A DNA stretch of 63,545 bases, the filler included, from Nitrospinae bacterium RIFCSPLOWO2_12_FULL_45_22 (GTDB lineage Bacteria > 2-12-FULL-45-22): NCBI GenBank assembly GCA_001803565.1. It is 8 parts of 8 records of this genome, joined end to end, with 100 filler letters (N's around TTAATTAATTAA, not from the genome) between each part and the next. Parts side by side here need not be neighbours in the genome. Positions count along the whole stretch, not along the records: positions 36,936 to 44,085 come from MHDQ01000144.1; 7 more parts are not named here. One strand, 5' to 3'. Shown here piece by piece: positions 5,565-44,085 of this stretch. A program made the position numbers and the translations under genes. Positions within the stretch are counted from its first letter, which is position 1, and each line of letters starts with the position of its first letter. A model generated the notes under the pieces. It was not told where the DNA came from. It was given only the letters and a program-made list of their open reading frames with translations, and did no database searches.

Positions 5565-6527
5565 TTAGCACTGATGACTTTGACTGTCAAGGTTTTTTTG
5601 ATCCTCACCACATAGCGCCAAAAGCTTTTCCCACTGGTGATCCGCAGCCTTCTGGAGTTCTTCTAGAATAGCCTGATTCTCTGGCCGGAAGAGGTGGGCA
5701 AACCTTCCCTGGGGCTTCAGGTATTCTACTAGTGGACGCTTATCTTTGGGCTTATAGTTCAGGCGATATACCCCATTCTCTACCTCATATAAGGGCCAAA
5801 AGCAGGTCTCTACTGCCAGCCTTGCCAGTTCAATGGCACTATCCACCGCGGTGCGCCAACCCCGATGGCAGGGGGCCAAGACATTTATGAAACTAGGCCC
5901 CTCAACAGCCAGGGCCTTTCGGGTCTTGGTAGTAAGGTCTCGCCAGTGACTGGGTACCGATTGGGCTACATAGGGAATATTATGAGCAGCAACAATAGCA
6001 GTCAGGTCTTTTCGGTGCTGCATCTTTCCAGGGATGACCTGGCCCGCCGGGCTGGTGGTGGTAGATGCACCCAATGGGGTAGAGCTGGAGCGCTGAATGC
6101 CAGTATTCATATAAGCCTCGTTGTTGTAGCAGACATAGAGAAAAGTATGGCCCCGCTCTAGGGCCCCGGATAGGGACTGTAAACCTATATCATAGGTACC
6201 CCCGTCCCCGCCAAAGGCAATAAATTTTATTTTTTTATCGGCAGGTATTTTCCCCTGTTTCTTTAGCGATCGGTACATGGATTCTACACCGGCTATGGTA
6301 GCAGCGGCATTCTCAAAGGCACTATGGAACCAGGGTACTCGCCATGAAGTATAGGGATAGATGCTGGTAGCGACTTCCACACACCCAGTGGCATTAGCCA
6401 ATACAACTGGGTCTTCAGCCGCTAACAGTATCTGCCTGATAGCAACTGGCGCCCCACAACCGGCACAGAGCCTATGTCCACCCGCTAATAGCTCTTCTTT
6501 CTGCGATAATTCTTTTAAAGTTACCAT
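5565..6527 (-). CDS. porB: Pyruvate/2-oxoacid:ferredoxin oxidoreductase beta subunit (TPP-binding)
   Basis: GHRLCAGCG, ATGCVEV, GGDGGTYDIG, NNEAYMNTGIQRS. Confidence 0.93.
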   Translation of the reverse strand: MVTLKELSQKEELLAGGHRLCAGCGAPVAIRQILLAAEDPVVLANATGCVEVATSIYPYTSWRVPWFHSAFENAAATIAGVESMYRSLKKQGKIPADKKIKFIAFGGDGGTYDIGLQSLSGALERGHTFLYVCYNNEAYMNTGIQRSSSTPLGASTTTSPAGQVIPGKMQHRKDLTAIVAAHNIPYVAQSVPSHWRDLTTKTRKALAVEGPSFINVLAPCHRGWRTAVDSAIELARLAVETCFWPLYEVENGVYRLNYKPKDKRPLVEYLKPQGRFAHLFRPENQAILEELQKAADHQWEKLLALCGEDQKNLDSQSHQC

Positions 6528-6547
6528 CTATTTGAACCCCTTTCTAC

Positions 6548-7729
6548 TTATTCTCTCACGGTTAGATAATCCACCAGTTTGGTTATCTGACCATTAGAAG
6601 CGATCTTTTGCAATTCTTGATAAACCCTCTCAATATCTTCTAGCCCTAGATCCCTACCGCCTAAACCGTAGATATAATTGATCACTTTGGGTGGTTTTTT
6701 CAGGTCGAATAAGGCTGACCTCACTTCATTAAATACCGGCCCACCTACCGCCCCAAAGGAATCAGACCGGTCTAATACGGCTAATACCTTTAGGTTTTTC
6801 AGGCTCTCAGCCAGCTCTTCAAGGGGGAAAGGTCTAAATACCCGCAGTTTTAAGAGACCGGCTTTAACACCTTCAGCCCGTAGCTTATCCACTACGGCCT
6901 GGGCAGTCCCTCCAGCCGACCCTAAAACCAAAATGGCTATCTCAGCATCTTTCAGGCAATATTCCCTAAAGAAGCCATATCCCCTGCCAGACAGGGCTTT
7001 AAACTCTTCAGCTATTTCCAGGATAACTTCTTTGGCATTCTTCATGGCCTCTACCTGTTGGCGTTTATGCTCAGTATAATAATCTTGCAAGTCTATTGGA
7101 CCATAAGTCACCGGGTGTTCGGTATCAAGAAGGGGATAATAAGAAACATGCGGCCCAATAAACCTCTGTATTTTTTCGTCATCTAAAAGTTCCATCCTCT
7201 CTATAGAATGGCTAATGATAAAACCATCAAGACAAACCATTACCGGCAGCCGTACCCCACTATACTGCCCGATCCTGATGGCCTGAATAAGGTTATCATA
7301 AGCCTCCTGGGCATTCTCGGAATAGATTTGAATCCAACCAGAGTCACGGGCCCCCATAGAGTCGCTGTGATCACAATGGATATTTAGGGGTGCATTCAAA
7401 GCCCTATTAACCACGGTCATTACTATGGGCAGCCGGGAGCTCGCAGCTACGTATAGCATCTCCCACATCAGGGCCAGCCCCTGGGAAGAGGTAGCAGTCA
7501 TGACCCTTCCACCGGCTGCTGAAGCACCTATACAGGCACTCATAGCACTATGCTCACTCTCTACCGCTACCAACTCACTAGCCACTAAGCCATCGGCTAC
7601 AAAATTAGCAAATTCTTGCATAATCTCCGTAGAAGGGGTAATAGGATATGCGGCACATACATCGGGATTTATTTGCCTCATAGCCTCTGCTATGGCTATG
7701 TTCCCGGTCATTGCAACTATTTTACCCAC
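6548..7729 (-). CDS. porA: Pyruvate/2-oxoacid:ferredoxin oxidoreductase alpha subunit
   Basis: AAYPITPST, VESEHSAMS, TATSSQGLALM, YGLGGRD. Confidence 0.93.
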   Translation of the reverse strand: MGKIVAMTGNIAIAEAMRQINPDVCAAYPITPSTEIMQEFANFVADGLVASELVAVESEHSAMSACIGASAAGGRVMTATSSQGLALMWEMLYVAASSRLPIVMTVVNRALNAPLNIHCDHSDSMGARDSGWIQIYSENAQEAYDNLIQAIRIGQYSGVRLPVMVCLDGFIISHSIERMELLDDEKIQRFIGPHVSYYPLLDTEHPVTYGPIDLQDYYTEHKRQQVEAMKNAKEVILEIAEEFKALSGRGYGFFREYCLKDAEIAILVLGSAGGTAQAVVDKLRAEGVKAGLLKLRVFRPFPLEELAESLKNLKVLAVLDRSDSFGAVGGPVFNEVRSALFDLKKPPKVINYIYGLGGRDLGLEDIERVYQELQKIASNGQITKLVDYLTVRE

Positions 7730-7857
7730 TTTTTCCTCCTCTATATCTTCTCCCGGTTAATAGATTGCAATAGATACTATTACCGAGGGTTGCTTTAAAT
7801 GAGGGATTTTTGGTAAGGACAGCCTATAGTCTGGCATCATCGAGAGAGGCAACTAGA

Positions 7858-8157
7858 TCAATATTCAGCAAATTCTGCCTCTTCCACCATAGTGATGGCC
7901 TGGACTTTCGGTGGACACTCTTTGGCACATATCCCGCAGCCTTTACAATGCTCCAGATCTACACCCACTACTTTACCATCCTCCACAATAACGGAAGAAT
8001 CGGGGCAATAGACCCAGCACAAAAGGCAATGGATACATTTAGCCTCATCCCTAATGGGCCGGAAGCTACGCCACGAGCCGGTTTGATATTCTTCGGAATT
8101 ACCTGCCTCTATGATTAATCCCCCGATAGGGATTTCTTTCCATCCTTTTAGTCTCAC
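7858..8157 (-). CDS. porD: Oxidoreductase delta subunit (2x[4Fe-4S])
   Basis: TGSWRSFRP, CIHCLLCWVYCP, CKGCGICAKECP. Confidence 0.93.
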   Translation of the reverse strand: MRLKGWKEIPIGGLIIEAGNSEEYQTGSWRSFRPIRDEAKCIHCLLCWVYCPDSSVIVEDGKVVGVDLEHCKGCGICAKECPPKVQAITMVEEAEFAEY

Positions 8158-8726
8158 CCTTCCTGAACCTCCTGATAAGCCCTCTCAATACCTTTAATAT
8201 TGGCCTCTATCACTTTAGGATTAAATTTCTTGCTGAAGTTTTTCCTGACCTGCTCTAACAAGGCATCAATGCCCACCTCATTAGTAGCCCTGGCCAGCGC
8301 CCCTAGCATAGGCGTATTAGGCATAGGCCGGCCCAATGTTTCTATTGAAATCTTAGTAGCATCTACGGTATATACCTTACGCCGCCCCGCCTTTAATCTC
8401 TTTCGCATTTCGTCTGCCGATTTGGGGGTATTGATAATAACGATCCCATCCTCCGGCACCCCTTCAAGAATATCTACTACCCCGATTAAGGTTGGGTCTA
8501 CCACAATCACCACCTTAGGGTGGGTAACCTGACAGTGTATGGTCAGCAGATGATCACTGATACGGTTATAGGCTTTAACGGGTGCCCCCATCCTTTCTGG
8601 ACCATATTCTGGAAAGGCTTGCACATACTTACCATTTCCTAACATAGTTTCAGCAAGGAGTTTAGCAGCCGTAACTGTCCCTTGACCACCCCGGCCATGC
8701 CACCTAAACTCCATAAAATCAGTCAT
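8154..8726 (-). CDS. porG: Oxidoreductase gamma subunit
   Basis: RWHGRGGQGTVTAA, AFPEYGPERMGAP, PNTPMLGA. Confidence 0.92.
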   Translation of the reverse strand: MTDFMEFRWHGRGGQGTVTAAKLLAETMLGNGKYVQAFPEYGPERMGAPVKAYNRISDHLLTIHCQVTHPKVVIVVDPTLIGVVDILEGVPEDGIVIINTPKSADEMRKRLKAGRRKVYTVDATKISIETLGRPMPNTPMLGALARATNEVGIDALLEQVRKNFSKKFNPKVIEANIKGIERAYQEVQEG

Positions 8727-8769
8727 TAATCTCTCCCCTTTACTCTTTGTCCTTAATTTCCGCTGAAAA

Positions 8770-8807
8770 CCCTTATCTCAGGATTAACGCCCCCGCTGAG
8801 ATAAGGG
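8770..8807 (-). terminator. Hairpin, probable terminator of an upstream gene
   Basis: CCCTTATCTCAG/CTGAGATAAGGG 12-bp stem followed by TTTT on the minus strand. Confidence 0.5.
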
Positions 8808-8815
8808 ATTATAAA

Positions 8816-8915
8816 NNNNNNNNNNNNNNNNNNNNNNNNNNNNNNNNNNNNNNNNNNNNTTAATTAATTAANNNNNNNNNNNNNNNNNNNNNNNNNNNNN
8901 NNNNNNNNNNNNNNN
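8816..8915. other. Artificial contig linker (same at 18328-18427, 24504-24603, 30682-30781, 36836-36935, 44086-44185, 51364-51463)
   Basis: N44-TTAATTAATTAA-N44, stops in all six frames. Confidence 0.98.
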
Positions 8916-9234
8916 TAAATACTCCCATGCTTATCAGCCCGCGACTTATCCAGGAGGATTGCGGACAGGTCACCATGCGCCAGAACCGTAGGGGATGGCC
9001 CAGGAAGGCCAGGTGGGCACCACCGGAGGCTATAGCTACTACCAGGATACTAATGACTAGCCCCGGGATATAATCGTTAAGCCAGGAAATAAACCAGGTA
9101 CCTGCCCCTATGCCGGAAAAGAAATGGCCCAGTACCAGGAGAAGTCCTCGCTTCTCTATCCATTCCCTCTGGGGCCGCAGGGGGTTCCATAGGTCTTCAT
9201 GTATCTTATCAAAAGGGTCAGCCAATATCTTCAT
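8916..9234 (-). CDS. DmsC/NrfD-like membrane anchor (PadD-like), truncated by contig end
   Basis: TM helices with HLAFLGHPLRFWRMV..SSWISRG motif; follows the Fe-S and Mo subunits. Confidence 0.8.
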
Positions 9235-9352
9235 ATCCTAGCTCCTCTGAGACAAACTATGTTTATTCTCTTATTCAGGTCATTGCGTTATTAGGTTATT
9301 ACGACCCTCAATAACTCAGTAACCCAATGACCCAATAACCTAATTACCTAAA

Positions 9353-9958
9353 CTAAGGTGATAAATAGAAGACTGAAGGGTCGGTCCCTAGCTCTGCCCT
9401 AAGCTGCATACCCCGCCGGTCCCTTACTATCCTTGAGACTTCACTCTCAGGGTCGTCTAAGTCGCCAAAAGTCATGGCCTTAGTGGGGCAATTTGCTACA
9501 CAGGCGGGCTCCAGCCCCTTCTCTACCCGGTGTACGCAAAAGGTACATTTCTCGGTCACGCCGGTGGGATGAAGCTTATACATCAGCTCTTCATAAACAG
9601 TCAATCCCTGACCGGGGTAATATTCTCGTATCTTTGCATGGTAGAACCTTACACCGTATGGGCAGGCCATTATACAATAGCGACAGCCGACACATTTCTC
9701 ATCATCTACCAATACAATTCCATCGGCACGCTGAGTAGTAGCCCCGGTTGGGCAGACAGCTTTGCAGGCCGGGTCCTGGCAGTGCATACATTGGATAGGA
9801 TACGGTACCCGCCTTACCCGCGGAAAAGTACCGGCCTCTTCCTTCATCACCCGGCGCAAGAATATCCCAGGTGGTGTCCCGTTTTCTGCCTTACAAGCAG
9901 CTACACAGGCATAGCAGCCTGCGCATCGCTTCAGATCTATGGCCATTCCTAATCGCAT
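9353..9958 (-). CDS. DmsB-like 4x[4Fe-4S] electron-transfer subunit (PadC-like)
   Basis: CAGCYACVAAC, CMHCQDPACKAVCP, CVGCRYCIMACP, KCTFCVHR..PACVANCP. Confidence 0.92.
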   Translation of the reverse strand: MRLGMAIDLKRCAGCYACVAACKAENGTPPGIFLRRVMKEEAGTFPRVRRVPYPIQCMHCQDPACKAVCPTGATTQRADGIVLVDDEKCVGCRYCIMACPYGVRFYHAKIREYYPGQGLTVYEELMYKLHPTGVTEKCTFCVHRVEKGLEPACVANCPTKAMTFGDLDDPESEVSRIVRDRRGMQLRAELGTDPSVFYLSP

Positions 9959-10061: not shown

Positions 10062-12659
10062 TTATGCTTTATCTACCTTTACCTTTACACAAAGGTCCCA
10101 ATTTTGTACCGTCCAGTCCACGCATTTCGGGTCGAGCTTCATAAGCCATTCAAAGCATGACCCCTTCTCTGGTTGGCTGGCAATCGGGAGGTATTTTGAC
10201 CAATGCCCGCCACAGTTGGCTATGGCTAAACATTCCGGATGGACACCCTGGGTGAGATGGAGCTTACCCTTAGTCCTCCCACCATACATTGACTCAATCC
10301 ATACCCAGTCCCCTTCCTTCAAACCCTTCTTCTTACCATAGTCCTCATTCATTACCAGGTTATAGACAGTAGGGTCTATCTGGCCCAGATCATCCAACCA
10401 GGCATTATTATAGGTAGAGGAGAAGGTATGGGTAGGGACCCGGTAATAGAAGGCATATAGGTCAAAGCCCGGTCTTTTCTCCTCATGGGAGGCGCAAGGG
10501 CCCCAATCGGGCAGGGGCTGTAGATCGGAAAAATCCAGCTCTTCGCCATAAGTTAGCTGTCGCAGGACTTCTTCGGTCCGTTCTCGCAGATCAACGAACC
10601 ATTCAAAGTAGATCGGTACCCTTAATTTCATAAAATGTTTCCAATAAGACTCTTCTGGCTTTTTCTTCCATTTTATAACCCCATTTTTCTTAAACCATTC
10701 CAGGTTGTGATCTTCGCCAAAATGGGACTTAAGGGTAAGGTCTAGGATTTCGGTCCAGGTATAACGTTTATTGGGATCAAGGAGATATGGCTCCCGGAGC
10801 TGGGCAACCATATTATATGTAGCAGCAAAATCCTGCCACAAATCTAGCTTATCTAACAGATGGAATATTATTTCATGCCGTGGCTTTCTTTCATAAAGGG
10901 GCTCTACAATGGGTTGCCGCAAAGAGGTTAGCCATTCCTTCAAAATAGCTGAGTTGTGGTATCCAGCCAGGGTAGGTGGTTGGGGCAAGTCGTACCTCTC
11001 CAGATAAGAGGCCTCTGGCAGGATAAGGTCAGCAAATTCAGTCACCTCATCCAGGTGCAAGCTTAATGAAGCTACAAAAGGAAATCTCTTGATGGCTTCT
11101 GCTACCTTGGGGATCTCGGTATGGGTCATAATCACATTACATCCCGTCATGAGGAGAACTTCTGGAGTATATTTGAGCCCATACTTTGCCGGGTCTAGCA
11201 GAGTAAAGGGCTGCCCAGTACCCAGCACAGACAAGGGGGATATTTCCTGCAGAGATATATTTTCTGGCACCTTTACCTCACTGAGCGCGGAAGGTGGTGG
11301 GCCGATCCAGCTACCAGCAATAAGGAGGCCATCAGGGCCCTCGATAGGTTCCCAGCGCGGTAGCCCGGTCTCAGGGTAGCCCAGACACCTGGGATTACTA
11401 CCCAGGAGGCTGCCGGGTGTATCGGCCGCTCCAACTATCTCTGGGAGGAGGGAAAGGGCCATAGCCGTCCACAGGGTATGCTTATGGGCCTGAGCACCCT
11501 TAAAATAGAGCACCCCCACGGGCCGATGGGGTAGTTTATGCCCTTCAATTTCAATAGAGCTGCCAATCCGAGCCGCTTCACCAAATTCCTTTGTAATCCT
11601 CCTGATAGTACCGGCTGGGACACCACTAATTGATGCCGCCCCTTCGGGGGTATATTTTTTAACATGATCTTTAAGCGCCTGGAAGCCAGGGCAACAGGTC
11701 TCTCCATCAACCCCATAAGTACCGGTAAGGGCGAAATCCTTTATTGTAGGATCATCATAGGTCTTGGCTTTCCCTTCCCCAGCATCCCAGACCAGGGGTT
11801 TTGAGGTCTCCCGGTCTCGCATATATTTACCGTTTTTCTTAATGAGATAGGGGGCATTGGTATGCGTCTTAAGGTGTTCGGCATCATATAGGTTATACTC
11901 GTTAACCAGGAGGTTAATCATACTTAGGGCTACATAACCATCCGTCCCGGGCTTTATGGGTATCCATTCATCGGCCCTCTCGGCTGGTGTGGAGAGCAAA
12001 GGGTCTAACACCACTACCTTCATACCCCTTACCTTGGCATCGGCTATCCACCTCATCGAGGCCGTAGCATTATAATACATCCCAGCACCGGCCCCACAGC
12101 CAAACATCAAGAGATAATTACAATGATCATAGTCTACCTGAGTATGGATAGCCCCATGGAGTATGGCCGCCATAGCATGCTCGCCATTGCCACAATGGGG
12201 TCCGGCGCCACTCACCCACCAGTTACTGAAATAATTGAGGGCCATCCACCAGGCGGCCGTGAAGCCAAAAGATAAGGTATCTACTGCACTAAAGGTGAGG
12301 GTAATAGAGCGAGGGTCTTTTTGCCGGGCCTCTTTTAATTTGGCAGCCAGGGTATCGAGGGCCTCATCCCAGCTTATCCGCTGCCAGCCGGGGTCAATAC
12401 CTATTCCCTTTTCTGGATTGGTACGTTTTAAGGGATAATTAACCCGGTTAGGGTCATAAAGGAGCATGATCCCTGATTGCCCCTTGGCGCATATCCTCCC
12501 CCCACCACCGGCATTAGCTGCTTCTGGGTGCCCTTCGATCTTTACCAGGACACCATCTACTCTCCGGGCCCTTATGGTGCAGTTGGAGTAACAGATGTTG
12601 CAAACCGAGGGTATCCAGACATCCTCTTTTTCTGCCTTAAGCTCTTTTACTAAAGCCAT
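10062..12659 (-). CDS. Cytoplasmic Mo/W-bisPGD oxidoreductase catalytic subunit, phenylacetyl-CoA:acceptor oxidoreductase (PadB)-like
   Basis: CNICYSNC..ICAKG FS0 motif, YDPNRVNYPLKRTNPEKGIGIDPGW; no Tat signal; start moved to ATG 12659 (GGAGG RBS). PadB-likeness is from recall. Confidence 0.8.
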   Translation of the reverse strand: MALVKELKAEKEDVWIPSVCNICYSNCTIRARRVDGVLVKIEGHPEAANAGGGGRICAKGQSGIMLLYDPNRVNYPLKRTNPEKGIGIDPGWQRISWDEALDTLAAKLKEARQKDPRSITLTFSAVDTLSFGFTAAWWMALNYFSNWWVSGAGPHCGNGEHAMAAILHGAIHTQVDYDHCNYLLMFGCGAGAGMYYNATASMRWIADAKVRGMKVVVLDPLLSTPAERADEWIPIKPGTDGYVALSMINLLVNEYNLYDAEHLKTHTNAPYLIKKNGKYMRDRETSKPLVWDAGEGKAKTYDDPTIKDFALTGTYGVDGETCCPGFQALKDHVKKYTPEGAASISGVPAGTIRRITKEFGEAARIGSSIEIEGHKLPHRPVGVLYFKGAQAHKHTLWTAMALSLLPEIVGAADTPGSLLGSNPRCLGYPETGLPRWEPIEGPDGLLIAGSWIGPPPSALSEVKVPENISLQEISPLSVLGTGQPFTLLDPAKYGLKYTPEVLLMTGCNVIMTHTEIPKVAEAIKRFPFVASLSLHLDEVTEFADLILPEASYLERYDLPQPPTLAGYHNSAILKEWLTSLRQPIVEPLYERKPRHEIIFHLLDKLDLWQDFAATYNMVAQLREPYLLDPNKRYTWTEILDLTLKSHFGEDHNLEWFKKNGVIKWKKKPEESYWKHFMKLRVPIYFEWFVDLRERTEEVLRQLTYGEELDFSDLQPLPDWGPCASHEEKRPGFDLYAFYYRVPTHTFSSTYNNAWLDDLGQIDPTVYNLVMNEDYGKKKGLKEGDWVWIESMYGGRTKGKLHLTQGVHPECLAIANCGGHWSKYLPIASQPEKGSCFEWLMKLDPKCVDWTVQNWDLCVKVKVDKA

Positions 12660-12660
12660 A

Positions 12661-12975
12661 CTATTTTCCTCCCTGCAAAGGTGGTATAAAGAATACCTCA
12701 ATCTCTCTATCATTTTCCCCTAGGACTTCATTCAGGGCCACCAGATCAGAGGTAAAATCCCAGCTCTTCCCTTTGACGGCAATATGAACTTCGGGCTTAA
12801 GACGCGGCTTCCCGGTATCTTCCCTTATGAGCATCCGCTTCATCTTATCACCGTATTGCTGGCAGAGATGGTTTATTAAGTCGAGGAGGGTGGCCGGTGG
12901 ATCAATATGGAGGGTAATTTTGCCCGACTCTACCAGGAGCCGGAACTGTCCGTAAAACCTTACCTTAACTTCCAC
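12661..12975 (-). CDS. MoaD/ThiS-family ubiquitin-like sulfur carrier ending -GGK
   Basis: VEVKVRFYGQFR...TLLDLINHL...IEVFFIPPLQGGK; GTG start at 12975. Confidence 0.8.
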   Translation of the reverse strand: MEVKVRFYGQFRLLVESGKITLHIDPPATLLDLINHLCQQYGDKMKRMLIREDTGKPRLKPEVHIAVKGKSWDFTSDLVALNEVLGENDREIEVFFIPPLQGGK

Positions 12976-36935: not shown

Positions 36936-39659
36936 GGGATTCTTGGTATTTTTTACCTCTTTCCAGGGCATCTTTATATTCCGAATGGTCCGCTCATCCC
37001 AATGCATCGCCTTAGGATCAATGCCATAATCCTCAGGCCGGATGTAAGGATTAGAGCTGACAATAACATTGGGCAGGTAAGGGCTCGCCTCTGGACCTTC
37101 CCGGTGCACTACGAAGTTTTCTCCGTACTCGATGGCATCAGGGATGTCACAGTAGGCATGGAGCCTGCCGGTATCGGTATAGAAAGGTATGCTGTCTGTA
37201 ACCTGCTCATAAAAGGGATTCCTGGGATAAGTCCGGAAAAGCATCAGTGCTGCCCCCGGCTCTCCGTACTTGCCTGCCATAATATCTTCCACTCTATACC
37301 CCACGGTAGTAGTGGATGAATCGAGGAGCCGCTGGATATAGACCTCCCGCTTTCCTTCCAGGGCAAACCTCCAGTAGTCGGAGAATCTCTTATCGCCCGT
37401 CAGCTCCCCCAGTTTCTTGGCGATCTCAGCTAATATTGTTAGGTCATCCCTGGTATCATATAAGGGCTTAATACCTCCCTTCCAGATTTGCAGGAAGGGA
37501 TTAGAACAGGCGGCGGTGATCTCTAATCCCTCAAACTCCATCCAGGAATTGGCTGGGAGGGCAATATCTGAATACTCGACACTGGCCGTCATCTCAATAT
37601 CTACTGAGATGATTAATTCAACGTGGGGGTCTACGTTCTTAAGCATATCGTAGGCATGCTTAGCATTGTTGATGAGATTAACATTGGAAAAGAACATCAC
37701 CTTTGTCGGGGTGGGCATATGGGTCTTGCCGGTGAATACCTTACGGCCATGCTTAGGGGTTTCAACTATTAATGGCCGGTCTCCATGATTCCAGTAGGCC
37801 GGCTCTTCATCCTTGGTATAGGCATGGGCATGGATTTCCTTTCCATGAGCCTTTTCATCCAGGTTCATCTGGAAGGGGTCTTCAGCTACCCAACCCTTGA
37901 AGCCTGGGCCCGTCTCTGCTGAGCCCTGAAAAAGGGCTGACTTATAATTGCCTGCCCAGGTATGGGCACCAGAGCCAGGGATACCAATATTGCCGGTAAG
38001 CATTAAGGGTAGATAGGTAGCCCGGTTATGAAGGGTAGCATGGAAATAATGATTAATCCCTTCGCCGTAATGGATAGAAACGGGTTTAATGGTAGCAATA
38101 TCATGAGCCAGCCTGAGGATCAGGTCTTTTGGGGCATGAGTAATCTCTACGACGGTATCTATATCATAGTCCTGGAGATGGATTTTATACATCTCCCAAA
38201 GGGTCATGGCTTCAACGCTGCTACCATCTGCCAATTTGACCTGACCTTTCCATTCCAGCTTTGGGTCAATCCCCTTCTCAACCATCTTGGCGCCCACATG
38301 GTCTCTGGTAATAGCCTGTGGCTCGCCAGTCTTAGAATCTATAACTACATAATCCCCTAGTTTTTCGTACTGTTCGTCCTTAAGACCATGGAGTTTGAAG
38401 CTGGCACCATCTTTGCTCAGGCCGGGTTTATAACCGGGAAATACCTCATGAGCCCTGAGACGCATTAGGTTATCGGTCCGGACTAACAGGGGAAGGTCGG
38501 TGAATTTCTTGACAAAATCCTCATCATATTTCTTTTCATCCATCAGGATCTTAGTGATCCCTAAGAATATGGCAGTATCAGAGAGACCGGGTCTTACTGG
38601 GATATAGTAATCGGCCTTGGCACCCGGCGGATTATACTCCGGGGCTATGACGACAATCTTTCCTCCTCGTTCTACCGTCTCATTGAGCCAATGGGATTCG
38701 GGCATCTTGTTCTCTATAAGGTTTTTACCTACCTGGATAGTCAGCTTGGAGAAGCGGATATCATTAAAGTCTATCTCAGAAGCCTGGAGACCATGGACAT
38801 AGGGATGACCTGGGGCCTGGTCACCATGCCAGGTATAGTTAGACCAGGTTCTTCCTCCTAAAGCCCGCTCCGGCTCTACCTTCCGGATATGGGTATCTAA
38901 CAAGGCCAAAGAATTGCTTAGACGATACATACCATATTTGCCTATAACGCCAAGGAGGCCCATGCCACCCCGGAGCTTGAAAGTCCGGGTGCCGGCGATT
39001 CCTCCTTGAGTATCCTTCATCGGCTCGATCATCTCTGGGGGATACCCTTCATCGAGCAGACGTTTGGCACCCTCCTCGCCACTATATGTTTGGGCAATAT
39101 GGATAAACCCTTTGGCTATATAGTCATTTACCTCCTCCCAAGATGCTCTAACAAACTCGTCCTGCCCCCGGGCATCAAACATATACTTGCTTTTATTCGC
39201 TGGTGTAAGCTCGGGAAAACCGTCATCCGCCCATTGTTTCCATCCCTTACGGATGATAGGATATTTAAGCCGGTAAGGGCCGTAGACCCGCCGAGGGAAG
39301 GTATAACCTTTGAGACACATCCGGGGATTCCAGTTAGGAGTCGCCTTATTTCCATAGAGATCAGAGTATCTTTGATGGTCATAATTCTGCTCTACCCGTA
39401 CTGCTACCCCATTTCGGACAAATGCCTTTACCCGGCAATGATGGGTATCGTTCGGAGAACAAACAAAGGTAAAAGAAGAATCATAACGGTACTGATCATG
39501 ATAAATCTTTTCCCAATCCCGGTCGGGATAGTTTTCTAAAGGATTACCAACGTCTACCGCGGGCTGCAAGCTCTTGAGCCCGTAAGCTTTACCAGTAATA
39601 GCTGTCAATACTCCGGCCGTCAAGGACCCTTTCAAAAACTTCCTTCTGGTTAGATCCAT
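36936..39659 (-). CDS. nxrA: Periplasmic nitrite oxidoreductase/nitrate reductase alpha subunit, anammox/Nitrospira type; 3' end truncated
   Basis: Tat signal [25 protein letters not shown] (Cys-Asp-Cys-Cys FS0); [13 protein letters not shown] (Mo-ligand Asp); [14 protein letters not shown] 39659 with GGAGG RBS. Confidence 0.92.
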
Positions 39660-39855
39660 TATCCCTTCCTCCACAAATAATAACTAATAACCAAACAAAA
39701 ACTCAAAGGCGGCACAGGTAAAAACTCCCTTTTTTATCAGGCATTCTTTATTTCCTCGTTGGCATTTTTAAAACAAGAGGGATAAAAATGACATCTATTT
39801 ATCCCCATTATTCTCAAAATCCCCCTCTTTTGTTCGGTTGATATGTTATACCCTT

Positions 39856-40860
39856 TCAATTAGTCATAGCCTCTACCATAATACTGTAACACTCTATGCA
39901 CCTGGAACAGGCCCCATCCTCTACGGCCCATTGAGGATGATTCTCCTGAATAATTTTTATTACCGGCTCCTCAAGCTTTGCGGGCAAGTCATCTTCCCAG
40001 TAATAAGTGGGAAAACGGCAGAGGGGGCAGGGTGTTCCCGGAATATTCACTTTATTGCTATTACCGTTACCTTCTAGATAAAGGGTCCCGGTTCTTTTTA
40101 TAAGATTGGATATATCTTGAGCCATCTCTAATAAATCTCTATGGGTCAAGTCTTTGGCATTCCAGAACCATTCAAATATTGTCTTCCTTTGAGACTCCGG
40201 CAACCCTTGATAAAGGGTATCAAATTCCTCTACCCGCTTATCTCTTCCCTTCATCAATTCTTTACCCTGGCGGGATAGACGACCATCAATATAAATATCC
40301 CATAGTAAACTATATCGTTCCCTGACCCAATTTTTGGGAGACGGAATCATTTTAAGACCTTCGTCGTATTTAAATGCCTTATCGAGGATATCTGACACGT
40401 GCATAAATTCGTGGCGCAGAAAATTTTGTAACCGGTCTTTCTCAGTAAAATAGTGGCTCAGTAGTTTTATTAAGATGATTTTAGCGCCCCTCCCTTCTTT
40501 TTCACCCATAAGATCAGCGCCAGCATCTCCTTCAAAGGAAGCCATCTTAAGGTAGATAAGGTCTACATCGTCTTCAAATAAGGGGTATTCTCTAACGGTT
40601 TCCTCTAACGTATTTCCTAATCTCCATTTACGAAAGAGCTTCTGGTAGATAAGCTGGAAGGCTTTATCTCGTTCCTCCAGAGAATCCATTTCGTAAACCG
40701 GGTCTGTTAATGAATGATATTCCTTAAAAAACCCGAGATTCCCCTCCCCTTCTTTACGCTGAACTTCTAGCAAAACCACTGACTCAATTAATGCTGGGTC
40801 ATACTGAATATCCATAATAGCGTATTCCCTTTGCCTTGGAGAAAAACTATTAAGTTGCAT
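39856..40860 (-). CDS. Unknown protein with HExxH and C-terminal CxxC..CxxC, upstream of nxrA
   Basis: LRHEFMHVSD; CPLCRFP...ACSRCIEC; possible start at 40815. Confidence 0.75.
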   Translation of the reverse strand: MQLNSFSPRQREYAIMDIQYDPALIESVVLLEVQRKEGEGNLGFFKEYHSLTDPVYEMDSLEERDKAFQLIYQKLFRKWRLGNTLEETVREYPLFEDDVDLIYLKMASFEGDAGADLMGEKEGRGAKIILIKLLSHYFTEKDRLQNFLRHEFMHVSDILDKAFKYDEGLKMIPSPKNWVRERYSLLWDIYIDGRLSRQGKELMKGRDKRVEEFDTLYQGLPESQRKTIFEWFWNAKDLTHRDLLEMAQDISNLIKRTGTLYLEGNGNSNKVNIPGTPCPLCRFPTYYWEDDLPAKLEEPVIKIIQENHPQWAVEDGACSRCIECYSIMVEAMTN

Positions 40861-40936
40861 TCATAACGAATGTAACGGAGACCCTAAAAGGAAAGGCGCC
40901 CAAAGGGCCCCCTGCCACTATAAGCGCTCCTGGTCT

Positions 40937-41314
40937 TTAAGGGTTTATGCAAGGATCCAGTTTTTGCAATACATTTGATAATTCTTCCTCTCTAACGGGA
41001 GTCGTTATAACTTTCCAGACCCCTGCCTGCAGAATTTGTCTAGGATCAATTTGCGAGTTTTCTGGGATGACGGCTAGAATAGGGGCCTTCTTTGATGCTG
41101 CATGTATGGTAGAAACCATGTTCCAATCAAGGGCATCGCCTAAACAAGCAATGATCAAGTTGAATTCCCTTTTATGAAGAAACTTTAAAGCCTCCAGGGT
41201 GTTGGAGGTAGTGATGGTGTGATAAGGACCCCGGTTTAAGACATCTTGCACTATCCTCTGGTCAGACGTTCCAGAATTAAAAACCAAGATATCCCTCGAT
41301 ATGGTTACCATCAC
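40937..41314 (-). CDS. Stand-alone atypical (pseudo-)receiver domain
   Basis: Receiver-like pattern ILVF..EALKFL..FNLII..PIL..AG..I.TP..EEL, lacking the acidic pocket, phospho-Asp and Lys. Confidence 0.7.
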   Translation of the reverse strand: MMVTISRDILVFNSGTSDQRIVQDVLNRGPYHTITTSNTLEALKFLHKREFNLIIACLGDALDWNMVSTIHAASKKAPILAVIPENSQIDPRQILQAGVWKVITTPVREEELSNVLQKLDPCINP

Positions 41315-41370
41315 CTAATGATCTCCCTTGATGGATGATTGCGCCAGGTTTTAATAGGTCCCCAGAATGC

Positions 41371-41386
41371 AGCAAGACTTATGCCA
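41371..41386 (-). promoter_or_regulatory. Sigma-54 (-24/-12) promoter
   Basis: TGGCAT-AAGTC-TTGCT on the minus strand, about 55 nt upstream of the receiver gene. Confidence 0.8.
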
Positions 41387-41480
41387 TTTAAGCTATGGGA
41401 TGCAGGTAGAATAAAGATTGGTGGCTATTATTGGTTATGTTAGCAGAGGATAATTTCTTAAGAGGAAGGACTAACTTTGC

Positions 41481-41529
41481 CTGGCAAGCAGGGCATTTTG
41501 CCCTGCTTGCCAGGGCAAAATGCCCTGCT
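41481..41529. promoter_or_regulatory. Tandem palindromic upstream activator sites (bEBP enhancer candidate)
   Basis: CAGGGCA-ttt-TGCCCTG (41489-41505) and CAGGGCA-aaa-TGCCCTG (41511-41527), 22 bp apart, 100-140 nt upstream of the -24 box. Confidence 0.65.
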
Positions 41530-41605
41530 GGGGTAGTAGCATAACTTTGCGGTTTAAGTAGCTTTTGATTATCATGGCGTCGCTCCTAAAACGATACAAT
41601 CTTAA

Positions 41606-41848
41606 GCGTAACGAAAACGAGCTGAGCGGCGGGGCTGATCGTTAATTGATTCTCACGGATTGTAGAGATCGTTTTCTTTGATAGCTTTTAGACATTCATC
41701 TACTCCTAATCCTTGCTCCAATTCTATCCATTCGCCGGTATGCCTCATGTACGATAAATTGATTTAATACTATCTTCGATACCCTACCGCGGTAAATTGC
41801 TATCCTTTGCCATTGCCTTCTCGGTAAGACTCTACTGCTTAGCACACC
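41606..41848 (-). pseudogene. Decayed gene cassette with half-deleted attC
   Basis: Residual frame NLSYMRHTGEWIELEQGLGVDECLKAIKENDLYNP*; last R' GTTACGC at 41606-41612. Confidence 0.45.
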
Positions 41849-41921
41849 GTCTAACGATGTGCTGGCCGGCTGGAAATGAGCGTCAGCGATTTACCAATCC
41901 GTGTCCAGAGACTGGTTAGCA
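41849..41921 (-). other. attC site
   Basis: R'' TGCTAAC ... R' GTTAGAC, directly after yafQ. Confidence 0.7.
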
Positions 41922-41931
41922 GGAAATGTTT

Positions 41932-42201
41932 TTATTCAAATAAGTCAGAATGGGTACCAGTTCTTTCAAAGATTATTGCGGAACCTGTTATCTTGTAAAT
42001 CAACAGCCAATCTGGCTCTATATGGCATTCCCGCCTGTTTTTATAGTTGCCTATTAATTTGTGGTCTTTATAATTAACATCAAGGCGGTCTCCATTTACA
42101 AGCTTTTTGATAACCTTTTTGATTTTTTCTGGGGACTTCCCTCGTTTCTCCATTCTTTTTATATCTTTTACAAATTGCTTTGTATAAGAAGGAATTCGCA
42201 C
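41932..42201 (-). CDS. yafQ: YafQ-family mRNA interferase toxin (cassette)
   Basis: DHKLIGNYKNRRECHIEPDWLLIY..RTGTHSDLF. Confidence 0.92.
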   Translation of the reverse strand: MRIPSYTKQFVKDIKRMEKRGKSPEKIKKVIKKLVNGDRLDVNYKDHKLIGNYKNRRECHIEPDWLLIYKITGSAIIFERTGTHSDLFE

Positions 42202-42471
42202 TTATATCCCCAGCTTGTCGAACATATCATCTGCGTCTTCACAACGAATCAGATTCCTATTTGCGTCTGTGTCTTTGAATACCTTTTCAGTTGTTTTGTT
42301 GGGGATAACAACATTAAATGGCAACCCATTCCTTAACTTAACCTGTCGATAAAATACAGTAATCGCCTCTGTTGCAGAAAGACCTAATTTTTCAAAAAGT
42401 TTTTCTACGTCTTCCTTAAGTTCAGGTTCAATTCGTGCTCTGACTGTAGCAGTCTTTGCCATAAACACCAC
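42202..42471 (-). CDS. dinJ: DinJ/RelB antitoxin (cassette)
   Basis: TVRARIEPELKE..LGLSATEAI..GLPF..PNKTT. Confidence 0.9.
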   Translation of the reverse strand: MVFMAKTATVRARIEPELKEDVEKLFEKLGLSATEAITVFYRQVKLRNGLPFNVVIPNKTTEKVFKDTDANRNLIRCEDADDMFDKLGI

Positions 42472-42559
42472 CTCCCAATAAAAAAATAACCCATATGGGC
42501 TACGATGTCAATTTGTTTTTGTGGCCCATATGGGGTGTGTGTAGGGGATGTATTATACC

Positions 42560-42635
42560 TGCTAACGGCTGAGGCATCACCTGCGGGCGCGTCCGCGCGG
42601 GCGGGCGGTCCGTCAGGTGCATGCCCGGGTTCGAC
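42560..42635 (-). other. attC site
   Basis: R'' GTCGAAC, L'' CATGCACC, L' GGTGATG, R' GTTAGCA (complement of the next R'' TGCTAAC). Confidence 0.85.
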
Positions 42636-43716
42636 GACCCTTCCGCTGAAGAGGTTTCCCTGCAGTCAACTTGAATAGCACACTCAAGCCCGGATCCCCG
42701 GCGATCGTGATCCCGTGAGCGGAACCGAGGAGTTTCGTCATGTCCTTGCCAGCCTCTTCGATCGCCTTCAGGACGAGAGCACCCGTCGGATCCGCAAAGG
42801 AGGCCATTCCCAGTGATACCCATTTCAGAGCCGTGCCGAAAATCTTGCGCCAGAGCTTGCCCTTCTCCAGTTCAATTCTTCTATGGATTTCGGCAACGTA
42901 GGGCATGACGGTGGTCTCGACCAGGAAGCGGGCCTCCTCTCGGACGCGGGAGTAATCAGGCTTGTCGCCAAGCAGTTTCCGTAGCTCGGCGGCCAACTTC
43001 AGAGTCATCATGCGAAAGGGGACAAGTTCGTCTGAAAAACGCCCGCGTATCTCAAGCAAGTCCTCGGCGGTTGACCAGTGCACCGCTGGCATATGGAGAG
43101 AAAGGAGCTCCAGACCGATTGCCGCCGCTAGATCCGGCGCGGAGCGCAGCAGGGGCCGAACATCGGGAACCGGAAGAGCACCTTCGTCGCTAACCGCAAT
43201 CCATCGGTTCTTGATTGCGAGGTACCGGGCGGAAGGCAGAACTCGGACAAGAATGTCGTCATCAAGCTCCGGATGCGCCTTGGTGAACTCTTCCACGGCC
43301 TCCAACTCGGGTGTCTTGCCCATGAGGAAGGCGGCGAATTCGTCCACAGGCAGCCCACCCGACGTGAGCTTGGAGACCATGTCATTGACCGTGGCGGTCA
43401 AGAGACCCGGGTGGTAGTAGACCGTGTCGCCAAGAAGCGGCTTGATGTCCAAAACGAAGCAGTAGAACTTGCCGGTCCTCTCGATGGTCTTCTGCGCACT
43501 AGGACCCGAATGGTCCCCCATCACCCCGATTTGGATCTTGTCTGGAAGGCCCTTGAGATACTGGGTATATCTTGCGACCGTTGACGCGTCGTCGCTCAGG
43601 GTCACGAAATGGACGCGGTCAAAATAGAGGTGCATCGACGCGAAGTGGTTTCGGTCGTGCGGGTAACAGTCTGGGTAGTAGATGGCCTCCAACGCCTCGT
43701 TGCTGCCTTGGGGCAT
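42613..43716 (-). CDS. GC-rich hypothetical cassette protein (DUF6236-like pattern)
   Basis: AIYYP..LYFDRVH N-terminus, EDLLEIRGRFSDELVPFR; ATG 43716 with GGAGGT RBS; stop inside the attC. Confidence 0.7.
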   Translation of the reverse strand: MPQGSNEALEAIYYPDCYPHDRNHFASMHLYFDRVHFVTLSDDASTVARYTQYLKGLPDKIQIGVMGDHSGPSAQKTIERTGKFYCFVLDIKPLLGDTVYYHPGLLTATVNDMVSKLTSGGLPVDEFAAFLMGKTPELEAVEEFTKAHPELDDDILVRVLPSARYLAIKNRWIAVSDEGALPVPDVRPLLRSAPDLAAAIGLELLSLHMPAVHWSTAEDLLEIRGRFSDELVPFRMMTLKLAAELRKLLGDKPDYSRVREEARFLVETTVMPYVAEIHRRIELEKGKLWRKIFGTALKWVSLGMASFADPTGALVLKAIEEAGKDMTKLLGSAHGITIAGDPGLSVLFKLTAGKPLQRKGRRTRACT

Positions 43717-43744
43717 GTGCCCACCTCCATGTTTGGTCCGTCGA

Positions 43745-44085
43745 ATCGGGATAGGGGGACGTCTCACGACGCCCCTCCTCCCACACCACCGGGCATACGG
43801 ATCACGTACCTCGGCGGTTCGGCTGATTAAGTCAACCAGACTTGTTGACCGAGGCGTCTCTTCTTAGCTCCGGTCACGAATTTCACCGGGTCTAGTGCAT
43901 TATCCATGAGCGTTACTAAGCAACTTCCTCTCTCTTTTAATCCCTTTCGGGAACCGTTCAGGCCTTCGGAGACGGCATGACACCAAACTCAGTCCGTTTA
44001 GGTCAAGAGTTTCCGTCACCTGCTCTTTCGATATACAGGGCGGGTTCCTAGTTCGTCCATGCGAGCCTTGCCTGCTGCCTGCGTC
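43745..44085 (-). mobile_element. Group IIC intron, 3' half, reverse-transcriptase ORF deleted; 5' part beyond contig end
   Basis: Domain V GAACCGCCGAGGTACGTGATCCGTATGCCCGGTGGT (CGC triad); domain VI ending CCTATCCCGAT|TCGAC. Confidence 0.85.

What the first reader, a model, noticed from the sequence alone, without database searches (positions are those of the whole stretch)
36936..39659. Anammox/Nitrospira-type periplasmic NxrA in a genome that otherwise looks like an anaerobic acyl/aryl-CoA degrader
Seen: Tat signal, C-x3-D-x3-C FS0 motif, [11 protein letters not shown] and [11 protein letters not shown]. From recall, segments such as [24 protein letters not shown] and [17 protein letters not shown] resemble anammox NxrA more than NarG. 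Other contigs encode a 4-subunit POR, HgdAB/Bcr-type, PadBCD-like and BadH-like enzymes; no hzs, hdh or amo is in the window. Inferred: an unrecognised nitrite oxidiser or, as plausibly, a heterotroph using this enzyme as a nitrate reductase. Direction cannot be read from sequence.
Basis: partly seen in the sequence, partly recalled or inferred. Interest (0 to 1): 0.82.

Follow-up and report, generated by a model that had tools for sequence, protein, structure and literature searches.

The report
Widespread periplasmic NXR-type nitrate/nitrite enzyme
The gene is a real periplasmic nitrite/nitrate oxidoreductase of the anammox/Nitrospira kind in a bacterium from a barely sampled phylum, but the same enzyme cassette occurs in hundreds of uncultured species of many phyla and here most likely serves nitrate respiration.

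Summary
Window 36936-39659 (-) holds the first 908 codons of an nxrA gene, cut by a contig end. It has a Tat signal, the 3Cys/1Asp FS0 motif, the substrate Asn and the Mo-ligand Asp. It scores 1437 bits to Kuenenia NxrA (PDB 7B04), against 186 bits for PcrA and 125 bits for NarG.

The rest of the operon probably lies on another contig of the bin (C4): the nxrA 3' end, nxrB, a chaperone and an NxrC fused to a dihaem cytochrome c. A second, divergent NXR-like set and a Rieske/cytochrome b complex follow. Synteny in related loci supports this join.

The genome is neither an anammox bacterium nor a known nitrite oxidiser. Its GTDB phylum holds two species genomes here, and its RpoB is closest to 'Nitrospinae' and 'Tectomicrobia' MAGs. 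The contig's composition fits the bin.

The enzyme type is not rare. Relatives at 65-80% identity, mostly followed by nxrB and a chaperone, were found in 457 species genomes, in at least 15 phyla among the 78 loci kept, with phyla interleaved in the tree.

The genome has an aa3 oxidase. No hzs, nirK, nirS, nrfA, RuBisCO or ATP-citrate lyase was found. It also has EbdA-like hydroxylases, Bzd/Had-type enzymes and many multihaem cytochromes.

Nitrate respiration is the likelier role. Nitrite oxidation is not excluded. It is a new member of a known kind.

The parts
36936..39659 (-). nxrA, the first 908 of about 1155 codons. It encodes the catalytic Mo-bisMGD subunit of a periplasmic NXR-type nitrite/nitrate oxidoreductase and is cut by the contig end.
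   Evidence: 7B04_B, 1437.7 bits. One search found the 100% identical full-length protein P0002. In one search, contigs of other runs go on beyond 36936.
39579..39659 (-). Twin-arginine (Tat) signal peptide, [27 protein letters not shown]. The cleavage site is not determined.
   Evidence: One search gives the translation. In one search, TIGR01409 scores 17.3 bits against a cut-off of 16.7.
39435..39461 (-). FS0 [4Fe-4S] ligand motif CSPNDTHHC. It holds C67, D71 and C75 and the substrate-coordinating N70; the fourth ligand, C115, lies downstream.
   Evidence: The residue roles come from KsNXR-A in PMC8387239.
38802..38834 (-). [11 protein letters not shown], containing D280. By the alignment, D280 corresponds to the Mo-coordinating Asp275 of KsNXR-A.
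39856..40860 (-). Conserved hypothetical protein (334 aa) directly upstream of nxrA. It has an HExxH...D motif and four invariant cysteines (two CxxC pairs) and belongs to no Pfam or NCBIfam family. It is a frequent companion of this nxr cassette.
   Evidence: 30 of 103 loci directly upstream; 77 of 156 loci anywhere.
40937..41314 (-). Small receiver-domain-like protein (125 aa) upstream of the cluster. The match is weak and no role is shown.
   Evidence: In one search, PF00072 scores 23.3 bits, below the cut-off of 30.2.

Best explanation
The finding is the 5' three quarters of nxrA. This gene encodes the molybdopterin subunit of a Tat-exported, periplasmic nitrite:nitrate oxidoreductase of the Nitrospira/Nitrospina/anammox type.

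The complete system is most likely hyp334-nxrA-nxrB-chaperone-nxrC, split between contigs C144 and C4. Its NxrC is an EB_dh-type haem b protein fused to a dihaem cytochrome c. A second divergent NXR-like alpha-beta-gamma-chaperone set and a Rieske/cytochrome b complex follow.

Shown:
- the family
- the export signal
- all known cofactor and substrate residues
- the partner genes in the same bin
- conservation of the order nxrA, nxrB, chaperone in relatives (the fused NxrC in a subset only)

Inferred: in this organism the enzyme mainly works as a respiratory nitrate reductase. The organism belongs to a two-species candidate phylum near Nitrospinota and carries many anaerobic acyl/aryl-CoA enzymes, EbdA-like periplasmic hydroxylases and multihaem cytochromes. 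Electrons would pass from quinol through the co-encoded Rieske/cytochrome b complex and c-type haems to the NxrC haem b, then through the NxrB Fe-S chain and FS0 to the Mo site. There nitrate is reduced to nitrite in the periplasm.

The enzyme type is reversible in vitro, so nitrite oxidation coupled to the genome's aa3-type oxidase remains possible.
For: Family and residues:
- 7B04_B scores 1437.7 bits, against NarG at 125 bits.
- C67, N70, D71, C75, C115 and D280 are all present.
- The Tat signal is present.

Partners on C4:
- The last 102 residues of an NxrA score 157 bits to 7B04_B residues 1048-1146.
- NxrB scores 600 bits to 7B04_A.
- A type II DMSO-reductase chaperone is present.
- A 525-aa protein combines a dihaem cytochrome c with an EB_dh domain and scores 119.6 bits to 7B04_C.
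- The second alpha scores 940 bits to 7B04_B, with its own beta, gamma and chaperone, then Rieske and cytochrome b.

Synteny:
- nxrB follows nxrA in 75 of 79 loci with enough downstream DNA, the chaperone in 72 of 79 and the fused NxrC in 17 of 79.
- L052 repeats the whole order, including an alpha2-like gene.

Binning:
- C144 has a tetranucleotide correlation of 0.885 with the rest of the genome, the 29th percentile of 163 contigs of like size. Its nxrA part has r = 0.90 and 45.8% GC, against a genome GC of 45.2%. C4 has r = 0.93.

Physiology:
- No RuBisCO was found.
- The PF16114 hit is SucC-like, not ATP-citrate lyase.
- No cytochrome bd was found.
- Three EbdA-like alphas score 689-738 bits, two of them full-length with Tat motifs; a fourth, split copy lies on C96 and also has a Tat motif.
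- Bzd/Had-type and CoA-transferase genes are present.
- 26 ORFs carry four or more CxxCH motifs.

Literature:
- KsNXR catalyses both directions (PMC8387239).
- NXR/NAR-like enzymes of non-Nitrospinia Nitrospinota were judged likely nitrate reducers (PMC10839748).
Against: - Direction cannot be read from sequence.
- The genome has a complete-looking aa3/caa3 oxidase locus. CtaD scores 674.9 bits against a cut-off of 670.75, with SCO1, COX3 and COX4 beside it.
- No NirK, NirS or NrfA was found. Nitrite would therefore be an end product, which suits a nitrite oxidiser just as well.
- The genome is only 85% complete, so every 'not found' is weak.
- The C144-C4 join is inferred, not shown. The two contig ends share no word of 21 bases with any other contig. 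About 145 codons are missing.
- The 102-residue C-terminus on C4 is only 94% identical to that of P0002. C4 may therefore carry a second nxrA copy or a strain variant.
- The one phylum-mate, G006 (68% complete), has no NxrA match, so the gene is not shown to be a trait of the lineage.
- No cultured nitrite oxidiser or anammox NxrA could be put in my trees, apart from the PDB comparison.
Confidence: 0.6

Rival explanations
1. The organism is a facultative or obligate nitrite oxidiser. Nitrite would be oxidised by the periplasmic NXR. Electrons would go through the cytochrome c domain of NxrC and soluble cytochromes to the aa3 oxidase. The adjacent Rieske/cytochrome b complex would run in reverse to make reductant.
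For: - The NXR is of the type used by Nitrospira, Nitrospina and anammox bacteria.
- An aa3/caa3 oxidase is present.
- Rieske and cytochrome b genes lie in the same locus.
- No dissimilatory nitrite reductase was found.
- The lineage neighbours Nitrospinota by RpoB.
Against: - No RuBisCO and no ATP-citrate lyase were found.
- The ACS-like gene lacks a Wood-Ljungdahl neighbourhood.
- The only oxidase found is an A-type oxidase, a type described as low-affinity in PMC10839748; no cytochrome bd and no cbb3 were found.
- The genome is rich in anaerobic acyl/aryl-CoA enzymes, EbdA-like enzymes and multihaem cytochromes.
- The same cassette occurs in many lineages not known to nitrify.
Confidence: 0.2
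2. The nxr contigs do not belong to this genome. They are binning contaminants or part of a recently transferred island, so the link between NXR and the acyl/aryl-CoA metabolism is spurious.
For: - C144 is only 7.15 kb.
- Its last 1.65 kb has 57% GC and a tetranucleotide correlation of 0.02.
- It carries a RelB/YafQ toxin-antitoxin pair.
- Depth roughly halves beyond about 41.55 kb, and a repeat of about 70x depth lies at 43628-43866.
- The NxrA tree does not follow organismal kinship. The closest holders have RpoB only 59-65% identical.
- nxr genes are known to be hard to bin (PMC10839748).
Against: - The nxrA part of C144 and all of C4 have bin-typical composition.
- Estimated contamination is 1.31%.
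- C4's order of genes continues the cassette that starts on C144, as in L052.
- The odd-composition tail is physically joined to the rest in an independent run (X2 record 15), so the contig is not an assembly chimera.
Confidence: 0.1
3. The enzyme is a type II DMSO-reductase-family member acting on another substrate (chlorate, perchlorate, selenate or an organic compound), and not on nitrate or nitrite.
For: - The best curated family is only the general TIGR03479 subfamily, below its cut-off (343.9 bits against 984.75).
- The genome holds four other type II enzymes.
Against: - The match to a biochemically characterised NXR runs end to end.
- The substrate Asn (Ile in EbdA, per PMC8387239), the Mo-ligand Asp and the Asp-type FS0 are all conserved.
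- NxrB and NxrC match 7B04 best.
Confidence: 0.04

Closest known systems
Kuenenia stuttgartiensis NXR (NxrABC, PDB 7B04; Chicano et al. 2021, PMC8387239)
   Same: - End-to-end match of alpha (1437.7 bits), beta (600 bits) and the gamma EB_dh domain (about 120 bits).
- The alpha carries a Tat signal, the 3Cys/1Asp FS0, Asn70 and the Mo-ligand Asp.
- For the second gamma, the positions aligned to the haem b ligands Met155 and Lys305 hold Met and Lys. I read this from the alignment.

   Different: - The host is not an anammox bacterium; no HZS_alpha domain was found.
- NxrC is fused to a dihaem cytochrome c here.
- I did not look for an NXR-T homologue.
- Identity to the Kuenenia alpha was not computed over the whole length. 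I counted 60 identities in the first 102 aligned columns.
Periplasmic NXR of Nitrospira and Nitrospina (nitrite-oxidising bacteria)
   Same: Same enzyme clade according to the literature. PMC8387239 gives about 60% identity between these enzymes and Kuenenia NxrA (legend read). Both have a periplasmic, Tat-exported alpha.
   Different: - No sequence of a cultured nitrite oxidiser was in my trees, so placement relative to them is untested.
- The reductive TCA marker ATP-citrate lyase was not found.
- No bd-like and no cbb3 oxidase was found.
NXR/NAR-like enzymes of uncultured non-nitrifying lineages (for example non-Nitrospinia Nitrospinota, PMC10839748)
   Same: - A pNXR-type alpha in genomes whose other traits point away from nitrification; the direction is undetermined.
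- The nearest relatives here are of that kind: L021 'uncultured bacterium' at 78%, L045 Schekmanbacteria at 80% (partial), then Methylomirabilota, Hydrothermarchaeota and Chloroflexota.
   Different: This copy sits in a phylum with two species genomes. It lies in tandem with a second NXR-like set, which is seen in only 6 of 156 related loci.
Membrane-bound respiratory nitrate reductase NarGHI
   Same: Same superfamily and the same overall chain of Mo site, Fe-S clusters and haem. The proposed physiological reaction, nitrate to nitrite, is also the same.
   Different: - Only 125 bits to E. coli NarG. The narG model gives 150.6 bits against a cut-off of 1084.
- The active site is periplasmic, not cytoplasmic.
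- FS0 is of the Asp type, not the His type.
- The gamma is an EB_dh-type haem b protein, not the dihaem membrane protein NarI.
Ethylbenzene dehydrogenase and perchlorate reductase (other type II DMSO reductases)
   Same: Tat export, an alpha-beta-gamma architecture with an EB_dh-type gamma, and a dedicated chaperone.
   Different: Far lower scores: PcrA 186 bits and EbdA 156 bits. The genome's own EbdA-like alphas are separate genes only 23-28% identical to NxrA.

Membership tests
Periplasmic NXR alpha subunit (Nitrospira/Nitrospina/anammox type) | Twin-arginine signal for export | tested here: met
   The N-terminus is [15 protein letters not shown]01409 scores 17.3 bits against a cut-off of 16.7.
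Periplasmic NXR alpha subunit (Nitrospira/Nitrospina/anammox type) | FS0 cluster with 3Cys/1Asp ligands (C67, D71, C75, C115 in KsNXR-A) | tested here: met
   All four residues are present at the same numbers.
Periplasmic NXR alpha subunit (Nitrospira/Nitrospina/anammox type) | Mo-coordinating Asp and substrate-coordinating Asn | tested here: met
   N70 is present. D280 in [11 protein letters not shown] aligns with Ks Asp275.
Periplasmic NXR alpha subunit (Nitrospira/Nitrospina/anammox type) | Much closer to a characterised pNXR than to NarG, EbdA or PcrA | tested here: met
   1437.7 bits to the pNXR, against 185.8, 156.4 and 125.3 bits.
Periplasmic NXR alpha subunit (Nitrospira/Nitrospina/anammox type) | Placement inside the clade of cultured nitrite-oxidiser and anammox NxrA in a tree | not tested
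   No sequence of a cultured nitrite oxidiser or anammox bacterium could be fetched. My trees hold MAG sequences only.
Periplasmic NXR alpha subunit (Nitrospira/Nitrospina/anammox type) | Partner NxrB and an EB_dh-type haem b NxrC encoded with it | tested here: inconclusive
   Both partners are present on C4 of the same bin. In relatives nxrB follows nxrA in 75 of 79 loci; a fused cytochrome c-EB_dh NxrC follows in 17 of 79. The physical join of C144 to C4 is not shown.
Periplasmic NXR alpha subunit (Nitrospira/Nitrospina/anammox type) | Nitrite-oxidising activity in vivo | not testable with these tools
   This needs physiology or enzymology.
Respiratory nitrate reductase NarG | Score above the TIGR01580 equivalog cut-off; His-type FS0 | tested here: not met
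   150.6 bits against a cut-off of 1084.15. The first FS0 ligand is Cys67, where NAR and EBDH have the His ligand, and Asp71 is the fourth ligand.
Anammox bacterium (host) | Hydrazine synthase present; organismal markers of Brocadiia | tested here: not met
   PF18582 gives no match in the 85%-complete genome. The best named RpoB hits are Nitrospinae and Tectomicrobia MAGs.
Chemolithoautotrophic nitrite oxidiser (host) | A CO2-fixation pathway together with an O2 reductase | tested here: inconclusive
   An aa3/caa3 oxidase is present. No RuBisCO and no ATP-citrate lyase were found, and the ACS-like gene is ambiguous. The genome is incomplete.

The most novel reading that the evidence does not exclude
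In this two-species phylum next to Nitrospinota, the tandem pair of periplasmic NXR-like enzymes forms an all-periplasmic electron circuit with the Rieske/cytochrome b complex. The cytochrome-c-fused NxrC takes electrons from the genome's Tat-exported EbdA-like hydroxylases and multihaem cytochromes and passes them to nitrate. When oxygen is present the circuit runs backwards, from nitrite to the aa3 oxidase. The conserved HExxH/4-Cys protein encoded directly upstream of nxrA is a so far unrecognised accessory factor dedicated to this class of NXR.
Probability: 0.12. Interest if true: 0.6.

Novelty: new member of a known kind. Interest (0 to 1): 0.33.

Why it matters
Periplasmic NXR is the marker used to call nitrite oxidisers in metagenomes. 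This case shows again that the marker alone misleads. The same cassette, at 65-80% identity, sits in hundreds of uncultured species of many phyla, including archaea. Here it sits in a genome whose other genes point to anaerobic respiration of organic compounds.

If the enzyme works as a nitrate reductase, it is a route of nitrate-to-nitrite conversion in groundwater and sediment that gene surveys would book as nitrification.

Two smaller leads may be worth a specialist's time. One is the uncharacterised HExxH/4-Cys protein that accompanies the cassette. The other is the tandem second NXR-like enzyme.

Tried and rejected
- **Earlier notes:** there were none for this genome.
- **Contig ends:** a search for shared 21-base words found no overlap between C144 or C4 and any other contig.
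- **Metagenome scan:** it returned the contig itself (L105) but not the 5357-base contig that carries the full-length P0002, so the C144-C4 join could not be checked directly.
- **ATP-citrate lyase:** the single PF16114 hit (32 bits, C53) is a succinyl-CoA-ligase-beta-like gene among CoA-transferase, BadI-like and BzdN-like genes. I rejected it.
- **Wood-Ljungdahl pathway:** a 316-aa CdhC/ACS-like gene on C157 lies with MoxR/VWA, CooC-like and prismane-like genes. No corrinoid protein lies nearby, so I do not count it as evidence for the pathway.
- **Anammox reading:** rejected, because no HZS_alpha domain was found and the organismal markers point elsewhere.
- **The 334-aa neighbour:**
  - 0 of 27 members match a Pfam or NCBIfam family beyond chance-level hits.
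  - A profile search of the PDB gave nothing better than E = 0.52.
  - The Atlas gave only 'hypothetical protein' clusters, plus an SprT-like lead at 0.80, which is within chance range.
  - A homologue search with a capped candidate set listed 26 hits, and every name given was 'hypothetical protein'.
No fold search was made.
- **RNA:** no RNA holder of the stretch was listed, so nothing can be said about expression.
- **Literature on the neighbour:** a paper search for 'upstream of nxrA', 'nxr gene cluster', 'nxr operon' and 'conserved hypothetical' found nothing about it. A search for 'kustd1699' found only tables that call it a hypothetical protein.
- **Identity to Kuenenia NxrA:** not computed, because the PDB sequence is not a stored protein.
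Full report
**What is there.**
The window is not one stretch of genome. It is eight contigs (C139-C146 of a 3.67 Mb, 321-contig bin) joined by N spacers. The finding lies on C144, which is window 36936-44085. On the minus strand an open frame starts at ATG 39659 with [11 protein letters not shown] and runs off the contig start at 36936 after 908 residues.

- CSPNDTHHC at residues 67-75
- [11 protein letters not shown] at residue 276
- [11 protein letters not shown] at residue 311
- [10 protein letters not shown] at residue 98
- [17 protein letters not shown] at residue 230

A 100% identical full-length protein of 1155 aa is in the protein collection (P0002). Contigs of three other sequencing runs continue 122, 635 and 34 letters beyond 36936. 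The gene is therefore cut by the assembly, not truncated in nature.

**What it is.**
- Against solved structures the best match by far is the Kuenenia stuttgartiensis NXR alpha subunit (7B04_B, 1437.7 bits, residues 1-907 against 1-902). Perchlorate reductase PcrA follows at 186 bits, EbdA at 156 bits and E. coli NarG at 125 bits.
- The curated narG model gives 150.6 bits against a cut-off of 1084. The best curated family is the general type II DMSO-reductase alpha subfamily, below its cut-off.
- The structure paper (PMC8387239, passages and an extended-data legend read) names the defining residues. The FS0 ligands are C67, D71, C75 and C115, the substrate-coordinating residue is N70, and the Mo ligand is D275. 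All are present here at the same numbers, with D280 taking the place of D275 after a five-residue insertion.
- The Tat signal passes its model cut-off.

**The rest of the system.**
Searching the whole bin found a second contig, C4 (13.6 kb). Its right end carries the last 102 residues of an NxrA (157 bits to 7B04_B residues 1048-1146). On the same strand it then carries:
- an NxrB (411 aa, 600 bits to 7B04_A)
- a type II chaperone
- a 525-aa protein that joins a dihaem cytochrome c to an EB_dh haem b domain (119.6 bits to 7B04_C; the N-terminal half scores 209 bits to 6H5L_B, a Kuenenia-unrelated label 'conserved hypothetical cytochrome')
- a second, divergent alpha (1161 aa, 42% identical to P0002, 940 bits to 7B04_B)
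- its own beta, gamma and chaperone
- a Rieske protein and a split cytochrome b

The same order is conserved elsewhere. In related loci with enough downstream DNA, nxrB follows nxrA in 75 of 79, the chaperone in 72 of 79 and the cytochrome-c-fused NxrC in 17 of 79. Locus L052 repeats the whole order up to an alpha2-like gene.

This supports joining C144 to C4, but does not prove it:
- The contig ends share no word of 21 bases with any other contig.
- About 145 codons are missing.
- The C4 fragment is 94%, not 100%, identical to the C-terminus of P0002.
Two near-identical nxrA copies or strain variants are therefore possible, either of which would also explain the assembly break.

**Whose gene is it.**
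RpoB (C207) is 100% identical to a cluster seen on eight contigs. It is 82-84% identical to two unnamed metagenome proteins, 76% to a 'Nitrospinae bacterium' MAG and 67-70% to 'Tectomicrobia' MAGs.

In the held GTDB set, the phylum of this genome contains only itself and one other species genome, G006. G006 is in the same order, has RpoB 76% identical and is 68% complete. It shows no NxrA match. The genome is therefore not of a known nitrite-oxidising or anammox genus.

Composition gives no sign of mis-binning for the nxr part:
- C144 correlates at 0.885 with the rest of the genome, the 29th percentile of 163 contigs of 5-9.5 kb.
- Its first 4.4 kb has r = 0.90 and 45.8% GC.
- C4 has r = 0.93.
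Coverage could not be compared with core contigs.

**How common the enzyme is.**
A scan of one genome per species found 457 stretches encoding a relative. The best 80 (78 loci) are 65-80% identical. Their record titles name MAGs of Hydrothermarchaeota (archaea), Chloroflexota, Methylomirabilota, Acidobacteriota, Omnitrophota, Planctomycetota, Verrucomicrobiota, 'Deltaproteobacteria', Binatia, Poribacteria, Schekmanbacteria, one Nitrospinota MAG and others. None names Nitrospira, Nitrospina or an anammox genus.

- In a FastTree of 68 rows, and in an IQ-TREE quick tree of 33 rows, the G000 protein groups with L021 ('uncultured bacterium', 78%) and L045 (Schekmanbacteria, 80% over 745 residues). 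Support is 98 and 96.
- Phylum labels are interleaved: 22 changes for 15 groups in the 68-row tree.
- The genomes of the nearest holders are not kin of G000. Their RpoB is 59-65% identical in four of five; none was found in the fifth.

The literature already says this:
- NXR and NAR cannot be told apart by sequence, and the NXR/NAR-like enzymes of non-Nitrospinia Nitrospinota probably reduce nitrate (PMC10839748, passages read).
- Horizontal transfer of NXR is regarded as a major driver of its spread (PMC11009272; PMC10203281).

**Which way it runs.**
This is inference. Points that speak for nitrate respiration:
- No RuBisCO was found.
- The only ATP-citrate-lyase-like hit is SucC-like.
- The ACS-like gene lacks a Wood-Ljungdahl neighbourhood.
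- No cytochrome bd was found.
- There are three EbdA-like alphas (689-738 bits to the EbdA model), two of them full-length with Tat motifs, plus a fourth, split copy that also has a Tat motif.
- Bzd/Had-type, BadI/BadH-like, CoA-transferase and POR genes are present.
- 26 ORFs carry four or more CxxCH motifs.

Points that speak for, or at least allow, nitrite oxidation:
- An aa3/caa3 oxidase locus is present.
- No NirK, NirS or NrfA was found.
- The Rieske/cytochrome b genes lie next to the nxr genes.
- Kuenenia NXR works in both directions in vitro.

No hydrazine synthase domain was found. All 'not found' results are for a genome estimated 85% complete.

I put nitrate respiration at about 0.6, facultative nitrite oxidation at about 0.2, mis-binning at about 0.1 and another substrate at under 0.05.

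**Verdict.**
The claim of rarity is not. This is a new member of a known, widely transferred kind of enzyme, in a poorly sampled lineage. Interest is modest.

The points that go beyond the ordinary are the tandem second NXR-like set (6 of 156 related loci), the cytochrome-c-fused NxrC, and the uncharacterised HExxH/4-Cys protein next to nxrA.

Noticed in passing
window 39856-40860 (-): A 334-aa protein directly upstream of nxrA belongs to an uncharacterised family. In 27 aligned members E151, D157 and four cysteines (C278, C281, C318, C321) are invariant. H150 and H154 are kept in at least 90% of members, giving an HExxH..D motif plus two CxxC pairs.

A homologue lies directly upstream of nxrA in 30 of 103 related loci and somewhere in the locus in 77 of 156. 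It has no Pfam, NCBIfam or PDB relative. It may be an accessory factor of this NXR class. Whether it is homologous to Kuenenia kustd1699 is untested.
   Followed up: partly
G000 contig C4 (locus L017) 5790-9275 (-) and downstream to 408: A second, divergent NXR-like alpha (1161 aa, Tat motif RRQFL, 42% identical to NxrA) has its own beta, EB_dh gamma and chaperone. It keeps the C-x3-D-x3-C motif with Asn before the Asp, and a WHTD motif at the Mo-ligand position. A Rieske protein and a split cytochrome b follow. Alpha2-like genes beside the first nxr set occur in only 6 of 156 related loci, among them NC10 bacterium CSP1-5.
   Followed up: partly
window 42435-44085 (end of contig C144): The last 1.65 kb has 57% GC and a tetranucleotide correlation of 0.02 with the genome. 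It encodes a 384-aa protein without any family.

It is physically joined to the rest in an independent run, but contig depth roughly halves beyond about 41.55 kb. Positions 43628-43866 have about 70-78x depth, against about 13x for nxrA. Together this looks like a strain-variable or mobile segment that ends in a repeat.
   Followed up: partly
window 41932-42471 (-): A RelB/DinJ antitoxin (89 aa) and a YafQ/RelE-family toxin (89 aa) form a type II toxin-antitoxin pair between the nxr genes and the odd-composition segment.
   Followed up: no
G000 contigs C308 (2542-5418 +), C273 (1114-4011 +), C124 (3-2762 +), C96 (607-3455 -): There are four further type II DMSO-reductase alphas close to the TIGR03479 cut-off (about 957-962 bits for three of them). 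Those three score 689-738 bits to the ethylbenzene dehydrogenase alpha model. Tat motifs are seen on the C308, C273 and C96 copies; the C124 copy lacks its N-terminus at the contig end. They are candidate anaerobic hydroxylases. The C96 copy is split into two frames. A matching beta above its cut-off lies on C151.
   Followed up: partly
G000 contigs C3, C64, C271, C310 and others: 26 ORFs carry four or more CxxCH haem-binding motifs, up to 16 in a 1430-aa protein on C310. This suggests extensive periplasmic or extracellular electron transfer.
   Followed up: no
window 10062-12713 (-), contig C140: A PhsA/Psr-like molybdopterin oxidoreductase (883 aa, 245 bits to the thiosulfate reductase model, below its cut-off) lies in the same window. 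It is one of many molybdoenzymes in this genome.
   Followed up: no
G000 contig C157 (locus L184) 8935-9888 (-): A short (316 aa) CdhC/ACS-like protein sits among MoxR-type AAA ATPases, a VWA protein, a CooC-like ATPase and a large prismane-like protein, not in a Wood-Ljungdahl operon. Its function is unclear.
   Followed up: partly
window 37698-37702: Contigs of three runs fit the nxrA sequence only from about 37700 rightwards and differ before it, and depth in that bin is slightly raised. This is consistent with a second, related copy or strain variant that shares a conserved stretch of nxrA.
   Followed up: no
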